Source: Escherichia phage vB_vPM_PD06
Strand: one strand, 5' to 3'
Sequence record: NC_052653.1
Length of the DNA: 64,000 nt
The position numbers and the translations under genes are program-made. How positions within the stretch are numbered: the first letter of the stretch is position 1; every line of letters begins with the position of its first letter. The notes under the pieces were generated by a model. It ran no database searches and was not told the origin of the DNA. It saw only the letters and a program-made list of their open reading frames with translations. This document shows positions 20,833-24,654 of the stretch, one piece after another.

Positions 20833-21429
20833 ATGCTTACCGTGTATGGTGAAGGTATTAATGATTTGGAAGGCGAGAGTACACTACCTGGTAGTAAGAA
20901 ACTAACGCCGCATTATATGAAATGGATGGCTATGTTGGGGAGGTGTTACTCCCCTTGTCAACAAGAACGTGATCCTTGTTATAAGGGGGTGACGGTTTGT
21001 GAAGAATGGAAGTTGTTCTCCAATTTCTATTCCTGGTTGCAAACTTGGGATAACTGGGAAAACTTAGAACTTGATAAAGATATTATAGGAGGGAGAGTTT
21101 ACTCTCCCGATACCTGTCTTTTAGTAACAGGAGATCTTAATAAGTTCTTAGCTTATAGAGTAAGTAAAAGATCTCATGGGACTATGGTAGGCTGTAGTTA
21201 CGAGAAAGATCGTAAAAAGTATAAAGCCAACATAAAAGTAGGCAGTCGCATGAAAACGCTGGGACGTTTTAATACTGAAATTGAAGCGCATCTTTGCTGG
21301 TTGAAAGCTAAGGCAGAGCAGCTTACAAAATTCTTTGAAACTGAAGATGAAAGAGTTGTTCCACATCTTAAAGCACTATGTAATGAAATGCTTGAGCATG
21401 TAGAACAACATAAAGAGTGGACACGATAG
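20833..21429 (+). CDS. hypothetical protein, possible DNA-binding/HNH-associated domain
   Basis: W..M..RC...Y..V.VCEEW..F..F pattern is reminiscent of DNA-binding modules of phage homing endonucleases; no clear HNH catalytic motif seen. Confidence 0.35.
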   Translation: MLTVYGEGINDLEGESTLPGSKKLTPHYMKWMAMLGRCYSPCQQERDPCYKGVTVCEEWKLFSNFYSWLQTWDNWENLELDKDIIGGRVYSPDTCLLVTGDLNKFLAYRVSKRSHGTMVGCSYEKDRKKYKANIKVGSRMKTLGRFNTEIEAHLCWLKAKAEQLTKFFETEDERVVPHLKALCNEMLEHVEQHKEWTR

Positions 21430-21437
21430 GAGAAAAT

Positions 21438-22031
21438 ATGAATATTGAAGATCAAAAAGTACGAGCTTTAGAAGTATTACGTATGTGCCAACTGGTAGAT
21501 CCGTTTGCAATTGTAGCTGGCGGCGCTGTACGCGACTGGCGATTAGAAACACCTGCGCAAGATATTGACATTTACTTGCGTATGCCTAACCACAATACAA
21601 CCGTACTGGTAGAGAAATTTTTGATGTTGGGTGTTGGTGCACGTAATGTTAAACAACTTACTAAGCAAACAGAACACACTTATGCCGAACTACCACATTT
21701 GAAATGGGTATTTGAAGCATACTATAAAGATCTTAAGTTTAACTTTATGATCATGGAAGAAGGTGTACGCAGTGAAATCGTATGGAACTTTGACGTAGCT
21801 ATTTGCCTGTGTTACTGGGATGGTCTAAATTATGTATATCATCCAGATTTTGAATTTGCATTGAAAACTAATATTTGCACTATTAATCACCGATACACAG
21901 GTAAAGAAGCACACGTCCGTAAAATGGCAGAACGTTTCCCTATGTTCCGCTTTGTAAAAGACGTTTTCATTCCCAAAGAACCAGAAGTACGTACACTGGA
22001 TTCGTTTAACAACGAAGAATTTAAGATTTAA
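21438..22031 (+). CDS. hypothetical protein
   Basis: Start set at ATG 21438 (AGGAGAAAAT RBS). Confidence 0.45.
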   Translation: MNIEDQKVRALEVLRMCQLVDPFAIVAGGAVRDWRLETPAQDIDIYLRMPNHNTTVLVEKFLMLGVGARNVKQLTKQTEHTYAELPHLKWVFEAYYKDLKFNFMIMEEGVRSEIVWNFDVAICLCYWDGLNYVYHPDFEFALKTNICTINHRYTGKEAHVRKMAERFPMFRFVKDVFIPKEPEVRTLDSFNNEEFKI

Positions 22032-22033
22032 GT

Positions 22034-22063
22034 GTTGACAAACCTTACAATTATGTGTTATTA
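22034..22063 (+). promoter_or_regulatory. strong sigma70-like promoter (TTGACA, 18 nt, TATTAT)
   Basis: -35 TTGACA at 22034-22039 and -10 TATTAT at 22058-22063, 12 nt upstream of ATG 22075. Confidence 0.5.
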
Positions 22064-22074
22064 TGAGGACTTGA

Positions 22075-22473
22075 ATGACAGACAATCGTTCTAAAATCTT
22101 AGTCGAGACGTTCTACAGTAGAGAAACTAATCGTCTTGAACTAACTAAAAAAGATGTTGAACCTCAAGATAATACCTTTTTTATTCAAATACTATGTCTC
22201 TTTGGTGGATACAACCGTTTAACAGTGCGGGTAGAAGACAAAGAGATATCTGAAACCACTATCACAAAACGTGAACTAATGCTACTACAGGACACAATAC
22301 GAGATGTTTTGGACAATCCTGGAAAAGCAAAAGTAATTAACCTTGGTGGAGAAAAGATACAAATTCTCCATTTTGAAAGTGGTGAAATAGGATTTGGTAT
22401 TGGTCTTGGTAAATACCTGTTGGAAGAAACTGACGCTACTCTTTTACGAGAGTTTTGTGTTAAAGTAATGTAA
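22075..22473 (+). CDS. hypothetical protein
   Basis: ORF track; GAGGA RBS. Confidence 0.45.
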   Translation: MTDNRSKILVETFYSRETNRLELTKKDVEPQDNTFFIQILCLFGGYNRLTVRVEDKEISETTITKRELMLLQDTIRDVLDNPGKAKVINLGGEKIQILHFESGEIGFGIGLGKYLLEETDATLLREFCVKVM

Positions 22474-22489
22474 TTATAGAGGAGAATTT

Positions 22490-23437
22490 ATGCCAGTAAT
22501 TAATTCTGAAATCGACCGTCGTACTAAAAAAGAAGCATTCTGGGCTGAAGGTATTGTCGAATATGTCAAACTAGATAAGTTTGATGAAATGAAAGTCTCT
22601 TATATTAAGGTTGCAGGTCAACCAGATAAGAAAATTGAATCAACTCACAAAGCATCTCTGCTTATTAAAGAGAAAGGTGCTGGTGCTGATGATAAAGGTG
22701 TTTGGGTTAGCCTAGGTGAAGTTAAACTGCACCCAGAACATGAAAACCTGCAAGTTAAAGATGGTGATAAGTGGGTTACTATCGAAAAAGGTGTAGAATT
22801 AACTATGGATGTTAAACCTTCCGAATGGAATGGCAAAACATACTACAATTCCTCTAAAGGTAAAATCACTATTCTTTCAACAGAAGGTGTTCAGCAAGCA
22901 CAATCCTCTTCAAAAGGTGGAAATAAGCCATCTAATAATGACGGTAGCAAGCCTAACTACAAAAAACGTGATACCGTAGGGATTGAAACAGGACACGCTG
23001 TAAACGGCGCTCTGGAGCTTCTACGTGCTGGTGTGAAAGGTGATGCTTTCGACTTGGCTGGTGTGGTACAATCTGCAACTGTTACTCTGAAAGCTGAAAT
23101 TGCTAAAGATCGTGGCGTTGATGTGACTGATTATGATCTTGGTGCTTCAGTTGGACACGCAATTCTTAACGCTTGTCGTGATCATACAGGTAAAACTGTA
23201 ACGGCAGAAGAGATTATTGAAGCTGCTCGTGAAGTTCTTGCTTTGTCTGATAAAGTAGCTGCTGCTATCCGTGGAATGTCTACTCCAGTACAAGAAGTTA
23301 AGAAAGAAACTAAAAAAGTAGAGAAGAAAGAGCCAGCACCGAAAGAACCAGAACCTGTTGTTCAAGATTTCGATGATGATATCCCATTTGCTCCTATTGG
23401 TTTGCAATATGGTCGAAACTTCCTGCACTGTTTCTAA
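22490..23437 (+). CDS. single-stranded DNA-binding protein-like
   Basis: Gly/Ser/Asn-rich flexible linker followed by DFDDDIPF, identical to the acidic C-terminal tip of E. coli SSB; here 15 more residues follow the tip. RBS GAGGAG. Confidence 0.5.
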   Translation: MPVINSEIDRRTKKEAFWAEGIVEYVKLDKFDEMKVSYIKVAGQPDKKIESTHKASLLIKEKGAGADDKGVWVSLGEVKLHPEHENLQVKDGDKWVTIEKGVELTMDVKPSEWNGKTYYNSSKGKITILSTEGVQQAQSSSKGGNKPSNNDGSKPNYKKRDTVGIETGHAVNGALELLRAGVKGDAFDLAGVVQSATVTLKAEIAKDRGVDVTDYDLGASVGHAILNACRDHTGKTVTAEEIIEAAREVLALSDKVAAAIRGMSTPVQEVKKETKKVEKKEPAPKEPEPVVQDFDDDIPFAPIGLQYGRNFLHCF

Positions 23438-23461
23438 TAGTTAAATATTGTGTGAATATAA

Positions 23462-23485
23462 GGAGCCTAACGGCTCCTTTTCTTT
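23462..23485 (+). terminator. rho-independent terminator
   Basis: GGAGCC-TAAC-GGCTCC followed by TTTTCTTT. Confidence 0.55.
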
Positions 23486-23497
23486 GAAGGAGATATA

Positions 23498-24229
23498 ATG
23501 AGCGAATTTGTAAACAACACTGCATTAAACTACCTGCAAACCCTCGAAAGCAATAGTGTAGATTTGATTCTTACTGACCCACCATATGCTATTTCTCGTG
23601 ACACAAATTTTCAATCTGGAGAGCCTACTGGAAAAGATACGGATAGATTCCGTGTATCTTACAACTTTGGTGACTGGGACGTTGTAGATATTCCTTACTT
23701 TAAAGAAGTATTCAAAGAAGCCTATAGGGTGCTTAGAAAAGGTGGTACTTGCATAGTTTGGTATGATATCTGGAAGATCCAGGAGCTACGTGAAATCCTT
23801 GAACCGCTTGGTTTTCGTATGTTCCGTACTATTGAATGGATTAAAACAAACCCTGTACCCATCAACAGTGGTGTTAACTACCTTAGTAACGCTAAAGAGA
23901 TGGCTATTGTTTGTGTTAAAGGTTCGAAGCCAACCTTCAATGCTTCCTACCATAAGGGTGTGTTTGAGTATCCTATCTATCAAGGAGCAGATCGTTTTCA
24001 TCCGACACAAAAACACTTGACTTTGTTTTGTGACCTTATTAATATACATACCAACGAAGGAGATGTAGTCTTAGACTTCTTCTCTGGAAGTGCAACAACA
24101 CAAGTTGCGGCACTTTTAACAGGTAGAGAATACTTAGGCTGTGAAGCCGATGTAAATATTTTTAAGCAAGCGGAGGAACGACTAAATGAGTACACTGAAC
24201 AGCAAAATCACCCTGAAAGCACTGATTAA
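23498..24229 (+). CDS. DNA methyltransferase (N6-adenine or N4-cytosine, beta class)
   Basis: DPPY catalytic motif (LILTDPPYAI) near the N-terminus and FxGxG-like AdoMet motif (DFFSGSATT) near the C-terminus; this motif order is typical of beta-class amino-methyltransferases. Confidence 0.7.
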   Translation: MSEFVNNTALNYLQTLESNSVDLILTDPPYAISRDTNFQSGEPTGKDTDRFRVSYNFGDWDVVDIPYFKEVFKEAYRVLRKGGTCIVWYDIWKIQELREILEPLGFRMFRTIEWIKTNPVPINSGVNYLSNAKEMAIVCVKGSKPTFNASYHKGVFEYPIYQGADRFHPTQKHLTLFCDLINIHTNEGDVVLDFFSGSATTQVAALLTGREYLGCEADVNIFKQAEERLNEYTEQQNHPESTD

Positions 24230-24617
24230 CAACGGTATGAATTTGGACTCTGGTCTGTCTCCAAAGATTTCTATGGCACGACTGGAACAAGTTACTGGTC
24301 TTCGTCAAGTAAGTAATGGCGGTAAGATTATTCGTGATGACGCTGTACCTTTTAATAAATTTCAGATTGAACGTCACTACGATCCTGTAACTGCAAGTCT
24401 TACTGGTGTAACTTTCTCAGGTTATCGTACTGCTGGATACCAACGTAAGGTTGTAGCTGAACGTATTAAGAGTCGCAAACAGAAAATTGCAACATTGAAG
24501 AAACTGGTAGAGAAAGATGTTTCAGAACTTCTTAACTTGTATGAAACTCTTGAAACAAAAGGTGAAAATCATAAACTCTTCTCTAAAGAAGATGTGAGCG
24601 TAATTTTCACTGATTAA
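24186..24617 (+). CDS. hypothetical protein
   Basis: ORF track; GGAGGA RBS; overlaps the methyltransferase 3' end by 44 nt. Confidence 0.4.
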   Translation: MSTLNSKITLKALINNGMNLDSGLSPKISMARLEQVTGLRQVSNGGKIIRDDAVPFNKFQIERHYDPVTASLTGVTFSGYRTAGYQRKVVAERIKSRKQKIATLKKLVEKDVSELLNLYETLETKGENHKLFSKEDVSVIFTD

Positions 24618-24629
24618 GATAAAAGAAAA

Positions 24630-24654
24630 GGAGCCAATAGGCTCCTTTTTGTTT
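24630..24654. terminator. bidirectional terminator between convergent early and late arms
   Basis: GGAGCC-AATA-GGCTCC hairpin flanked by an A-run upstream and a T-run downstream; separates the last plus-strand gene (ends 24617) from the first minus-strand gene (ends 24653). Confidence 0.55.

What the first reader, a model, noticed from the sequence alone, without database searches (positions are those of the whole stretch)
22490..23437. SSB-like protein with the DFDDDIPF tip motif placed internally
The sequence DFDDDIPF matches the conserved acidic C-terminal tip of bacterial SSB that recruits partner proteins, but here it is followed by 15 further residues (APIGLQYGRNFLHCF). Either the phage SSB carries an extension that masks or modulates the tip, or there is a frameshift or sequencing error near the 3' end.
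Basis: partly seen in the sequence, partly recalled or inferred. Interest (0 to 1): 0.4.

Follow-up and report, generated by a model that had tools for sequence, protein, structure and literature searches.

The report
Capped SSB tail on phage protein
The 15 residues after the SSB-like DFDDDIPF motif are real and conserved: they form a small portable "cap" found on many phage single-strand-DNA-binding proteins, sometimes arriving together with a selfish nuclease gene, and they bury a motif that is thought to need a free end.

Summary
ORF 22490-23437 (315 aa, the phi92 gp156 orthologue) ends ...DFDDDIPF-APIGLQYGRNFLHCF*. It is not a sequencing error: 50 independent phage genomes carry the same tail.

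The protein belongs to phrog_4477 and sits in the replication module. It is a homologue of Bas52_0087, the recently reported SSB-like trigger of the DRT10 defence. It has a beta-barrel that is OB-like but not proven, a four-helix domain and a disordered tail.

Most family members stop at ...IPF. About 20% carry a roughly 15-aa extension, A-P-[IV]-G-L-x-Y-x4-hydrophobic-x-x-hydrophobic, which changed state at least 15 times on the tree.

The same tip-plus-extension occurs on at least six unrelated phage ssDNA-binding scaffolds:
- in 173 phage records;
- in prophage ssb genes of 411 of 5,426 complete E. coli genomes (one variant alone);
- only in prophage- or plasmid-like surroundings in every locus I examined.

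The peptide is under purifying selection.

In several lineages the extension arrives as one block with an HNH-type homing endonuclease inserted exactly after the Phe codon (Bas54 versus Bas52). This window keeps only the first codons of that nuclease.

What the cap does is inferred, not shown: it most likely re-tunes or masks the tip. I found no description of it in the searchable literature.

The parts
22479..22484 (+). Shine-Dalgarno sequence GAGGAG, 5 nt upstream of the ATG
   Evidence: Read directly from the sequence.
22490..23437 (+). CDS of 315 aa: phage SSB-like protein (phi92 gp156 orthologue; phrog_4477; Bas52_0087 family)
   Evidence: ORF list. phrog_4477 E=2.6e-101. 100 homologues. 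BLASTP to Bas52_0087 gives E=2e-15 and 3e-14. phi92 gp156 is 96.6% identical over the last 58 aa.
22490..22879 (+). N-terminal all-beta domain (aa 1-130), an OB-like barrel and the presumed ssDNA-binding part
   Evidence: AF2 pLDDT above 90. The domain-only model has pLDDT 93 and pTM 0.83. Foldseek lists are dominated by RPA32, RPA70C, STN1, MCM-N and phage p2 SSB, but none is significant.
22880..22969 (+). Disordered S/G/N/K-rich linker (aa 131-160)
   Evidence: pLDDT 49-60. Length and sequence vary in alignment A2.
22970..23269 (+). Four-helix domain (aa 161-260) with conserved D161, G164, H169, Y215, G218 and G222; a putative oligomerisation domain
   Evidence: AF2 helices 163-179, 186-208, 215-230 and 239-260 with pLDDT above 90. 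Conserved columns in A2. The DRT10 escape substitutions D252V and Y351C of Bas52_0087 map to D161 and A257 here.
23270..23365 (+). Disordered K/E/P-rich linker (aa 261-292)
   Evidence: pLDDT 51-71. Poorly conserved.
23366..23389 (+). SSB-tip mimic DFDDDIPF (aa 293-300), internal in this protein
   Evidence: Sequence. The only part of the family profile that matches solved SSB chains. Present in 98/98 homologues.
23390..23437 (+). 15-codon post-tip extension APIGLQYGRNFLHCF (aa 301-315) plus the TAA stop: the 'cap' module
   Evidence: Motif A-P-[IV]-G-L-x-Y-x4-hydrophobic-x-x-hydrophobic in 20/98 family members. Also on at least 5 other scaffolds. All 5 differences from L004 are synonymous. 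It forms an island of 89% DNA identity between divergent flanks.
23409..23444 (+). Relic start of a homing-endonuclease ORF (MVETSCTVSNS*), in another frame and overlapping the extension
   Evidence: The first 6 codons equal the start of the phrog_2340 endonuclease that overlaps the same extension in nieznany/L004 (MVETSCIASKVCFKCG...). Coordinates read.
23460..23486 (+). Terminator-like hairpin AAGGAGCC-TAAC-GGCTCCTT followed by a T-run
   Evidence: The same stem follows the gene directly in homologues without the extension, L002 and L005.
23498..24650 (+). Context only: N6_N4 DNA methyltransferase (23498-24229), a 143-aa ORF (24186-24617), and a second copy of the same hairpin (24625-24650). 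All three are absent from relatives L002/L005.
   Evidence: PF01555 E=1.9e-30. Hairpins. Gene maps of L002/L005.

Best explanation
The ORF encodes the SSB-like protein of the replication module of a phi92-like (Justusliebigvirus) phage. Its layout is an OB-like beta-barrel, a linker, a four-helix (probably oligomerisation) domain, and a disordered tail ending in a mimic of the host SSB tip.

The 15 residues after ...DDDIPF are translated and selected. They are a horizontally mobile 'cap' module that is always found directly after an SSB-type tip, on many unrelated ssDNA-binding proteins of phages and prophages of Gammaproteobacteria.

In several lineages the cap's 45 nt and an HNH/EndoVII-type homing endonuclease gene form one block inserted exactly after the terminal Phe codon. 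The conserved tip-coding DNA therefore appears to serve as the landing site, and this is the likely vehicle for the cap's repeated spread. In this window the nuclease gene is gone and only its first codons remain inside the extension.

Mechanism (inferred, not shown): canonical SSB partners (ExoI, RecQ, PriA, chi, DnaG) dock the IPF side chains and the free alpha-carboxylate of the last Phe. The cap removes that carboxylate and offers a new non-polar C-terminus 15 residues further on. It should therefore weaken or re-specify the docking of host SSB-interacting proteins rather than simply abolish the tail's function. That the DDIPF motif stays conserved in capped proteins argues that tip and cap work as one composite motif.
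For: Real and not an error:
- 50 phage genomes carry the same 58-aa C-terminus.
- 53 records match at 95% or more over 2.3 kb.

Family and context:
- phrog_4477 E=2.6e-101.
- The gene lies next to the primase-helicase, DNA polymerase A and nucleotidyltransferase genes.
- It is homologous to Bas52_0087, the published SSB-like DRT10 trigger (bioRxiv 10.64898/2026.04.29.721553).
- The AF2 domain layout is given.
- OB-fold proteins dominate the fold-search lists.

The cap as a module:
- 20/98 family members carry it, with G-L-x-Y kept in 19 of those 20.
- Fitch parsimony needs at least 15 changes, with a cap-less root.
- The same tail occurs on classic SSBs, phrog_44, DUF669/phrog_9002, phrog_2544/32668 and phrog_3284.
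- Length is 14-16 aa, and 15 in 40 unique DNA versions.
- 173 phage records carry tip plus cap.
- 411/5,426 complete E. coli genomes match the 3' end of the mEp235-type prophage ssb gene.
- Only 16 of 185,579 species-representative genomes match the strict pattern. At least 14 of those are clearly prophage- or plasmid-like, and none is next to a uvrA-sized ORF.

Selection on the peptide:
- 5/5 synonymous differences, window versus L004.
- Third-codon positions vary freely among cassettes that carry the nuclease, while the amino acids are kept.
- Within prophage clades without the nuclease, synonymous:nonsynonymous alternative codons are 6:4, 4:5 and 14:9, against roughly 1:3 expected if neutral.

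Link to the homing endonuclease:
- Bas54 versus Bas52 have about 98-99% identical flanks and one clean block of about 640 nt [cap + bas54_0088] placed after the Phe codon. Five substitutions cluster in the 27 nt upstream.
- The same block structure is seen in L004 versus L005 and in nieznany gp212/gp213.
- The window keeps the nuclease start as a relic.
Against: - No binding, processing or stability data exist for any capped tail. The masking or re-tuning step rests on published structures of tip-partner complexes (my own knowledge, plus the DnaG carboxylate contact in PMC5872125).
- AF2 gives the tail low confidence (pLDDT about 50) and shows no docking onto the body.
- ssDNA binding and the OB fold are not established (best Foldseek E = 0.11, TM no higher than 0.44; no Pfam or NCBIfam hit).
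- Most capped loci (roughly 130 of 141) have no adjacent nuclease gene. Homing therefore cannot be the whole story, and the direction could be reversed: the nuclease may have inserted into pre-existing caps.
- All searches for the cap included or implied the tip. 'Never without a tip' therefore partly reflects how the cases were found.
Confidence: 0.65

Rival explanations
1. Removable pro-tail or degron. The non-polar C-terminal 15-mer is recognised by a cytoplasmic protease (ClpXP, ClpAP, FtsH or Lon). It is either trimmed to regenerate the free ...IPF end (an activation switch) or it drives turnover of the protein (a timer).
For: - The last five residues are always non-polar (FLHCF, AIYVI, LINVI, LLNCM, AIHAI). 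By the classic rule for C-terminal determinants of degradation (Parsell, Silber and Sauer 1990; own knowledge) such ends destabilise proteins, whereas ...DDDIPF does not.
- The F-A-P junction is nearly invariant.
- DDIPF stays conserved under the cap, which fits a tip that is exposed later.
- The tail is disordered and therefore accessible.
Against: - A simple non-polar degron does not explain the strict A-P-I-G-L-x-Y core or the fixed 15-aa length.
- No known cytoplasmic endoprotease site matches F|AP.
- Processive proteases would be expected to degrade the whole disordered tail, tip included.
- There are no experimental data.
Confidence: 0.15
2. Independent docking peptide. The cap is a second short linear motif that recruits a specific partner to ssDNA, while the internal tip is merely tolerated. 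The partner could be a conserved host protein, a phage protein, or the co-transferred endonuclease itself.
For: - Strong position-specific conservation across at least six scaffolds.
- The cap travels with a phrog_2340/1035 nuclease in five lineages.
- Precedent: phage SSB tails recruit cognate recombinases (HK620 SSB NDYPPF and Sak4; PMC5928155).
Against: - No phage-encoded neighbour is shared by capped loci. The neighbours vary: Erf, Sak4-like, RecT-like, YqaJ, DnaQ-like exonuclease, methyltransferases, integrases.
- Most capped loci lack the nuclease.
- A free-standing motif would be expected at least sometimes without a tip, but every case seen follows D-D-[IV]-P-F directly, although the searches were biased towards that.
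Confidence: 0.12
3. Neutral scar. The extension is only read-through into the 5' edge of a homing-endonuclease cassette (or another recombination junction), left behind when the nuclease gene was lost. On this reading it has no role in the protein.
For: - Clean [cap + nuclease] blocks inserted after the Phe codon.
- The relic nuclease start in the window.
- At least 15 scattered changes of state in one family, with a cap-less root.
Against: - Amino-acid-level conservation with free synonymous change, both in cassettes and in prophage clades without the nuclease.
- Constant length of 14-16 aa, always closing with a stop at the same place.
- Persistence in hundreds of loci without the nuclease, including 411 E. 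coli genomes.
- A neutral read-through would decay or acquire early stop codons.
Confidence: 0.06
4. Sequencing or assembly error, or a frameshift near the 3' end. The true protein would then end at ...DDDIPF.
For: Most homologues do end at IPF.
Against: - The identical tail is present in 50 independently sequenced phage genomes.
- There is no stop codon directly after TTT in any frame.
- The same motif is found in distant homologues and in unrelated proteins.
- The differences from L004 are synonymous only.
Confidence: 0.01

Closest known systems
E. coli SSB C-terminal tip (SSB-Ct, ...PPMDFDDDIPF-COOH), the docking hub for ExoI, RecQ, PriA, chi, DnaG, RecO and others
   Same: The acidic-hydrophobic motif is identical (DFDDDIPF; many relatives even have EPPMDFDDDIPF). 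It sits at the end of a long disordered linker.
   Different: Here the motif is internal: 15 more residues follow, so the alpha-carboxylate of the Phe is not free. The body is not a PF00436 SSB. Among the bacterial genome loci examined, the cap was found only in prophage- or plasmid-like surroundings.
Bas52_0087 (QXV84166.1, Vequintavirus RudolfGeigy), the SSB-like phage protein reported as the trigger of the DRT10 (UG17) reverse-transcriptase defence (bioRxiv 10.64898/2026.04.29.721553)
   Same: It is a homologue: the N-terminal barrel is 41% identical and the helical domain 32%. It occupies the same replication-module position and has the same tip. The escape residue D252 corresponds to the conserved D161 here.
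   Different: Bas52_0087 has an extra middle domain (408 aa) and ends exactly at ...SFDDDIPF*, with no cap. The preprint text I searched does not mention any post-tip extension.
Phage SSB tails that recruit cognate partners (T7 gp2.5 ...DGDF; HK620 SSB ...NDYPPF with Sak4; T4 gp32 acidic C-domain)
   Same: An acidic disordered C-terminal tail on a phage ssDNA-binding protein serves as a protein-interaction handle (PMC5928155; T7 and T4 from my own knowledge).
   Different: In those cases the aromatic residue is the last residue. No conserved non-polar 15-mer follows it.
Free-standing homing endonucleases of large lytic phages (T4 seg/mob-type genes) and inteins, as selfish elements that sit in or next to conserved genes
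   Same: A nuclease gene is present or absent between near-identical sister genomes at a precise junction beside a highly conserved coding stretch. Substitutions cluster next to the junction.
   Different: The inserted block extends the neighbouring gene's reading frame by a conserved peptide, and the nuclease start codon lies inside that extension (29-nt overlap). Cleavage and homing have not been demonstrated.
C-terminal non-polar degradation tags (ssrA ...YALAA; the MuA C-terminus)
   Same: A short disordered C-terminal peptide ending in non-polar residues. Some variants end ...YAL...YAI or ...HAI.
   Different: There is no sequence match to ssrA or to known ClpX motifs. The core APIGLxY has no counterpart. 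No degradation data exist.

Membership tests
Bacterial-type SSB (Pfam PF00436) | Significant match to the SSB family profile | tested here: not met
   Pfam-A gives 0 families at E up to 1. NCBIfam gives 0. A family-profile search against PDB sequences matches SSB chains only through the last ~26 tail positions.
Bacterial-type SSB (Pfam PF00436) | OB-fold ssDNA-binding domain | tested here: inconclusive
   A confident all-beta model (pLDDT 93, pTM 0.83). Foldseek hits are mostly OB-fold ssDNA binders (RPA32 prob 0.98, STN1, MCM-N, phage p2 SSB), but the best E is 0.11 and TM is no higher than 0.44. Full-length model: best E 4e-3.
Bacterial-type SSB (Pfam PF00436) | Disordered linker ending in an acidic tip whose Phe is the C-terminal residue | tested here: not met
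   The linker and the DFDDDIPF motif are present, but 15 residues follow the Phe.
Bacterial-type SSB (Pfam PF00436) | Binds ssDNA; forms homo-oligomers | not testable with these tools
   No biochemical data. Oligomerisation through the helical domain is only proposed for the homologue Bas52_0087.
phrog_4477 / Bas52_0087-type phage SSB-like proteins | Profile match and pairwise homology | tested here: met
   phrog_4477 E=2.6e-101. 99 of the 100 database hits at E up to 1e-3 are body homologues; the 100th, P0100, shares only the tail. BLASTP to Bas52_0087 gives E=2e-15 and 3e-14.
phrog_4477 / Bas52_0087-type phage SSB-like proteins | N-terminal barrel plus helical domain with conserved D161, G164, H169, Y215, G218 and G222 | tested here: met
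   Alignment A2. AF2 model.
phrog_4477 / Bas52_0087-type phage SSB-like proteins | Located in the replication module, downstream of the primase-helicase and family A DNA polymerase genes | tested here: met
   BME3 annotation. L002, L004 and L005. Bas52.
phrog_4477 / Bas52_0087-type phage SSB-like proteins | Triggers DRT10 or interferes with SbcB | not testable with these tools
   Shown only for Bas52_0087, which has no cap.
Tip-plus-cap tail module (defined here) | D-D-[IV]-P-F followed directly by A-P-[IV]-G-L-x-Y, 14-16 residues in all, with a non-polar end | tested here: met
   The window tail is DDDIPF-APIGLQYGRNFLHCF. Family consensus.
Tip-plus-cap tail module (defined here) | Occurs on unrelated scaffolds, in mobile-element surroundings | tested here: met
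   Classic SSB, phrog_44, phrog_9002/DUF669, phrog_2544/32668, phrog_3284 and phrog_4477. Of the 16 genome loci, at least 14 are clearly prophage- or plasmid-like, and none is next to a uvrA-sized ORF.
Homing-endonuclease cassette (phrog_2340/1035 nuclease plus cap) | Nuclease gene directly 3' of, and overlapping, the cap | tested here: not met
   In the window only an 11-codon relic remains (23409-23444). A terminator and a methyltransferase gene follow. The nuclease is present in L004/nieznany, Bas54, L117, L093 and mEp554.
Homing-endonuclease cassette (phrog_2340/1035 nuclease plus cap) | Site-specific cleavage of cassette-less alleles and biased inheritance | not testable with these tools
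   Only the presence/absence polymorphism with a clean junction and clustered flanking substitutions is seen.

The most novel reading that the evidence does not exclude
A family of HNH-type homing endonucleases uses the near-universal SSB-tip codons (...GAY GAY GAY ATH CCN TTY-stop) as a landing site shared by unrelated ssDNA-binding genes. It brings along a selected 15-residue peptide that caps the tip. The peptide either keeps the interrupted tail working (a harm-minimising device, as with inteins) or changes which host SSB partners are engaged. The second effect could stop the phage protein from titrating ExoI/SbcB, and so alter sensing by guard-type defences such as DRT10, whose known trigger is the uncapped homologue.
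Probability: 0.3. Interest if true: 0.8.

Novelty: new variant of a known kind. Interest (0 to 1): 0.6.

Why it matters
The free C-terminal Phe of SSB is the textbook docking point for more than a dozen genome-maintenance proteins, and C-terminal additions are generally regarded as inactivating. Here a conserved peptide buries that end in hundreds of phage and prophage SSB-type proteins. These include prophage ssb genes in about 7% of complete E. coli genomes, which annotation pipelines label plainly as 'ssb'.

If the cap re-tunes partner choice, it is a natural tool for dissecting the SSB interactome. It would also be a likely player in phage-host conflict: an uncapped family member triggers the DRT10 defence, which is controlled by the tip-binding nuclease SbcB.

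If the endonuclease link holds, the SSB tip codons would be a homing site shared across unrelated genes. That would be an unusual way for a selfish element to reach many phage lineages. Both ideas can be tested directly with existing BASEL phages: Bas52 versus Bas54, and JohannJBalmer and EmilieFrey.

Tried and rejected
1. Sequencing error or frameshift: rejected.
2. Programmed frameshift or read-through producing both forms: there is no slippery heptamer at CCA TTT GCT, and no nearby stop in the -1 or +1 frames (read).
3. Beta-clamp-binding motif (QL[SD]LF or QLxLxL) in GLQYGRNF: rejected. The Q is replaced by P or M in most variants (GLPYPRH, GLMYPRH), and the hydrophobic positions do not fit.
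4. 'The extension always comes with extra downstream cargo genes': true for the window and L004, false for Klebsiella K54lambda1.1.1 and PVP-SE1-type loci, where a terminator follows directly.
5. A single phage-encoded neighbour as binding partner: clustering the ORFs around 119 capped loci found none shared by all.
6. Sequence-level literature search for PIGLQY and DDIPFA: 0 papers.
7. Extension-only profile search (X-padded alignment A5), to look for caps without a tip: the tool returned only 22 short SSB fragments, all with the tip, so it was uninformative for full-length proteins.
8. Pfam on the overlapping nucleases: no hit. PHROGs was needed.
9. Remnant of the nuclease body downstream of the window's stop codon: an ungapped comparison gives 8/20 matches, which is not distinguishable from chance (sequences).
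10. Per-phage DRT10 sensitivities, to correlate with cap presence: these are only in a figure and could not be read.
Full report
**1. What is there**

The window carries an ORF at 22490-23437 (+), 315 aa. It is preceded by GAGGAG five bases upstream of the ATG and followed by a terminator-like hairpin at 23460-23479. The protein ends ...EPEPVVQ-DFDDDIPF-APIGLQYGRNFLHCF*. DFDDDIPF is residues 293-300 (nt 23366-23389) and the extension is residues 301-315 (nt 23390-23434). It is the only acidic SSB-tip-like motif in the six-frame translation of the window.

The window is a phi92-like Justusliebigvirus. 53 phage records match 22000-24300 at 95% identity or more. 50 records contain the last 58 residues at 96.6-100% identity, including phi92 gp156 and two BASEL phages. 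A sequencing or frameshift artefact is therefore excluded.

**2. What the protein is**

Pfam and NCBIfam give nothing. PHROGs gives phrog_4477, 'unknown function', at E=2.6e-101. In annotated relatives the gene sits at the end of the replication module, after the primase-helicase, an endonuclease/hydrolase, DNA polymerase A, a nucleotidyltransferase and a small ORF. Some records call it an SSB.

AlphaFold2, run with a 43-sequence alignment, gives this layout:
- a confident all-beta domain (aa 1-130);
- a disordered linker (131-160);
- a confident four-helix domain (163-260);
- a disordered tail (261-315; pLDDT about 50 over the tip and extension).

A domain-only model of aa 1-135 has pLDDT 93 and pTM 0.83. 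Foldseek finds no significant structural neighbour: best E is 0.11 and TM no higher than 0.44 for the domain, and 4e-3 for the whole model. The hit lists are nevertheless dominated by OB-fold ssDNA binders: RPA32, RPA70-C, STN1, the MCM N-terminal domains, lactococcal phage p2 SSB, Rim1 and PrgE. The viral library returns homologues plus weak SSB, DUF669 and DUF2815 hits. I therefore call the fold 'OB-like, not proven'.

A profile of the family matches solved SSB chains only through the tail.

A 2026 preprint (bioRxiv 10.64898/2026.04.29.721553) identifies Bas52_0087 as the trigger of the DRT10 reverse-transcriptase defence. It describes Bas52_0087 as an SSB-like phage protein with a C-terminal FDDDIPF tip, and reports that DRT10 is restrained by the tip-binding exonuclease SbcB. 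I fetched that gene. It is a homologue of the window protein: the barrel is 41% identical and the helical domain 32%. It has an extra middle domain. Its escape substitution D252V falls on the near-invariant D161 of the window protein. Bas52_0087 ends exactly at ...DDDIPF*.

**3. The extension is a module, not a quirk**

Among the 98 family members compared (the first 98 of the 100 database hits), all have the tip. 78 stop at or within one residue of ...IPF, and 20 carry a 14-17-residue extension. These 20 were found through body homology, so their tails are an unbiased sample. G-L-x-Y is kept in 19 of the 20, A-P precedes it in most, and the end is always non-polar.

On a neighbour-joining tree of the bodies, Fitch parsimony needs at least 15 changes of state, with a cap-less root. 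P0032 is 63% identical in the body but has the identical extension. At the DNA level, tip plus extension form an 89%-identity island between a roughly 45% linker and an unrelated downstream region. The 5 differences within the 45 nt are all synonymous.

A profile of the tails, searched against 5.8 billion proteins and against 1.84 billion cluster representatives, finds the same tip-plus-extension elsewhere. It occurs on classic SSBs and on members of phrog_44, phrog_9002/DUF669, phrog_2544/32668 and phrog_3284.

About 109 of these are ordinary 150-245-aa SSBs in prophage-like recombination modules. tblastn finds tip plus extension in 173 phage records, including PVP-SE1 gp39, mEp235 and Vibrio, Klebsiella and Providencia phages. 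The 3' end of the mEp235-type ssb gene (extension APVTLPFPRHAIHAI) is present in 411 of 5,426 complete E. coli genomes, where it is annotated simply as 'ssb'.

In 185,579 species-representative genomes the strict pattern occurs only 16 times. These are in Proteus, Providencia, Moellerella, Vibrio, Pseudoalteromonas, Oceanisphaera, Glaciecola and one Parasphingorhabdus MAG. At least 14 of the 16 sit in clearly prophage- or plasmid-like surroundings, and none is next to a uvrA-sized gene.

The extension is 15 aa in 40 distinct DNA versions. Within prophage clades that lack any nuclease neighbour, alternative codons at positions 8-15 are synonymous:nonsynonymous 6:4, 4:5 and 14:9, against roughly 1:3 expected if neutral. 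The peptide is therefore under purifying selection, and so is the DDIPF in front of it.

**4. How it moves**

In several lineages an endonuclease gene overlaps the end of the extended ORF:
- nieznany gp212/gp213, which is the same arrangement as L004 (29-nt overlap);
- BASEL phage Bas54, bas54_0087/0088 'putative homing endonuclease' (29-nt overlap);
- mEp554_23/24;
- viral contigs L117 (classic SSB) and L093 (phrog_44 SSB).

Four of these nucleases belong to phrog_2340 (E = 1e-41 to 1e-49). The fifth belongs to phrog_1035 and shares the N-terminal Cys-rich module.

The sister phages Bas52 and Bas54 are about 98-99% identical on both sides. They differ by one clean block of about 640 nt, consisting of the 45-nt extension plus the nuclease gene, inserted exactly after the Phe codon. 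Five substitutions cluster in the 27 nt upstream, changing YSFDDDIPF to YDFCDDIPF. L004 versus L005 shows the same block between the Phe codon and the shared terminator.

This is the pattern expected of a free-standing homing endonuclease whose landing site is the conserved tip-coding DNA. It would explain four observations: the repeated gains, the identical caps on divergent bodies, the cap's presence on scaffolds that share nothing but the tip, and its restriction to mobile elements. Cleavage and homing have not been demonstrated.

The window itself has no nuclease gene. It does keep an ATG inside the extension (23409) followed by MVETSC..., the first six codons of the nieznany nuclease, before a stop at 23442-23444.

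About 130 of 141 capped loci have no nuclease next to them. Either the nuclease is frequently lost while the cap is retained by selection, or the nuclease secondarily colonised pre-existing caps. I cannot tell which.

**5. What the cap does (inferred)**

Published structures of tip-partner complexes show the IPF side chains in a hydrophobic pocket and the terminal carboxylate held by a basic residue. This rests on my own knowledge for ExoI, RecQ, chi and RecO; the DnaG R452-carboxylate contact is in PMC5872125.

The cap removes that carboxylate, so canonical docking should be weakened or changed. Tip and cap are conserved together, the junction F-A-P is nearly invariant, and the length is fixed. 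I therefore favour a composite motif that re-tunes partner choice over a simple block.

The alternatives are given as rivals: a removable pro-tail or degron (the last five residues are always non-polar); an independent docking peptide; and a neutral scar (disfavoured by the selection signal). AlphaFold gives no intramolecular docking of the tail.

One speculative extension is that capping avoids titrating SbcB and so alters DRT10-type sensing. This is weakened by the report that DRT10 also protects against Stephanstirmvirinae, although per-phage values were not readable.

**6. Novelty and verdict**

The protein family itself is known in outline: some records annotate it as an SSB, and a homologue is published as the DRT10 trigger. 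The post-tip cap, its breadth, and its link to an endonuclease cassette are not mentioned in anything I could search. The motif strings appear in 0 papers. The DRT10 preprint and the HK620 SSB paper discuss only terminal tips.

I classify it as a new variant of a known kind. Interest is 0.6. The mechanism is open but directly testable with existing phages.

Noticed in passing
window 23460-23479 and 24625-24650: Two terminator-like hairpins with the same GGAGCC/GGCTCC stem bracket the N6_N4 DNA methyltransferase (23498-24229) and a 143-aa ORF (24186-24617, overlapping the methyltransferase gene by 44 nt). Relatives L002 and L005 have a single such hairpin directly after the SSB-like gene and none of these genes. 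This suggests a cassette of about 1.2 kb inserted between duplicated terminators.
   Followed up: partly
window 23409-23444: An 11-codon relic ORF, MVETSCTVSNS*, in a second frame inside and after the extension. Its first six codons equal the start of the phrog_2340 endonuclease that overlaps the same extension in phage nieznany/L004.
   Followed up: yes
L126:46700-47500 versus L145:1050-2500 (BASEL phages Bas52 and Bas54): The flanks are near-identical and there is one clean block of about 640 nt (45-nt extension plus the homing endonuclease bas54_0088) after the Phe codon of the SSB-like gene. Five substitutions cluster in the 27 nt upstream. This is a ready-made experimental pair, since Bas52_0087 is the published DRT10 trigger.
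   Followed up: yes
L143:2081-2587 (phage mEp235) and E. coli genomes: A classic 168-aa prophage SSB in an Erf-SSB-exonuclease-anti-RecBCD module ends ...DFDDDIPFAPVTLPFPRHAIHAI. Its 3' end is found in 411 of 5,426 complete E. coli genomes and is annotated simply as 'ssb'.
   Followed up: partly
phage records MG065639, MG065645, MG065656 and MG065689: Four records named 'Campylobacter phage' (host given as C. jejuni) are about 98% identical to this E. coli phi92-like phage across 22000-24300. They are probably mislabelled or contaminant genomes.
   Followed up: no
window 22035-22064: A sigma-70-like promoter match (TTGACA, 18-nt spacer, TATTAT; 11 of 12, with an extended -10 TG) just upstream of the 132-aa ORF 22075-22473, which precedes the SSB-like gene. 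The overall number of promoter-like sites in the region is no higher than in shuffled sequence.
   Followed up: no
L078 and L088 (viral contigs): An extension APIGLQYGKSRIHALS is overlapped by a 116-aa ORF. Its first ~8 residues (MEKAESTH...) resemble the endonuclease N-termini (MAKVESTH..., MENIESTR...), but the rest is unrelated. It looks like a nuclease gene replaced after its start.
   Followed up: no
window 21417-22031: The upstream 204-aa ORF, annotated as a nucleotidyltransferase in relatives, gives only a sub-threshold match to the poly(A) polymerase head domain (PF01743, E=0.0016, below the gathering score). In L002 its counterpart carries a weak Gad2 hit.
   Followed up: no
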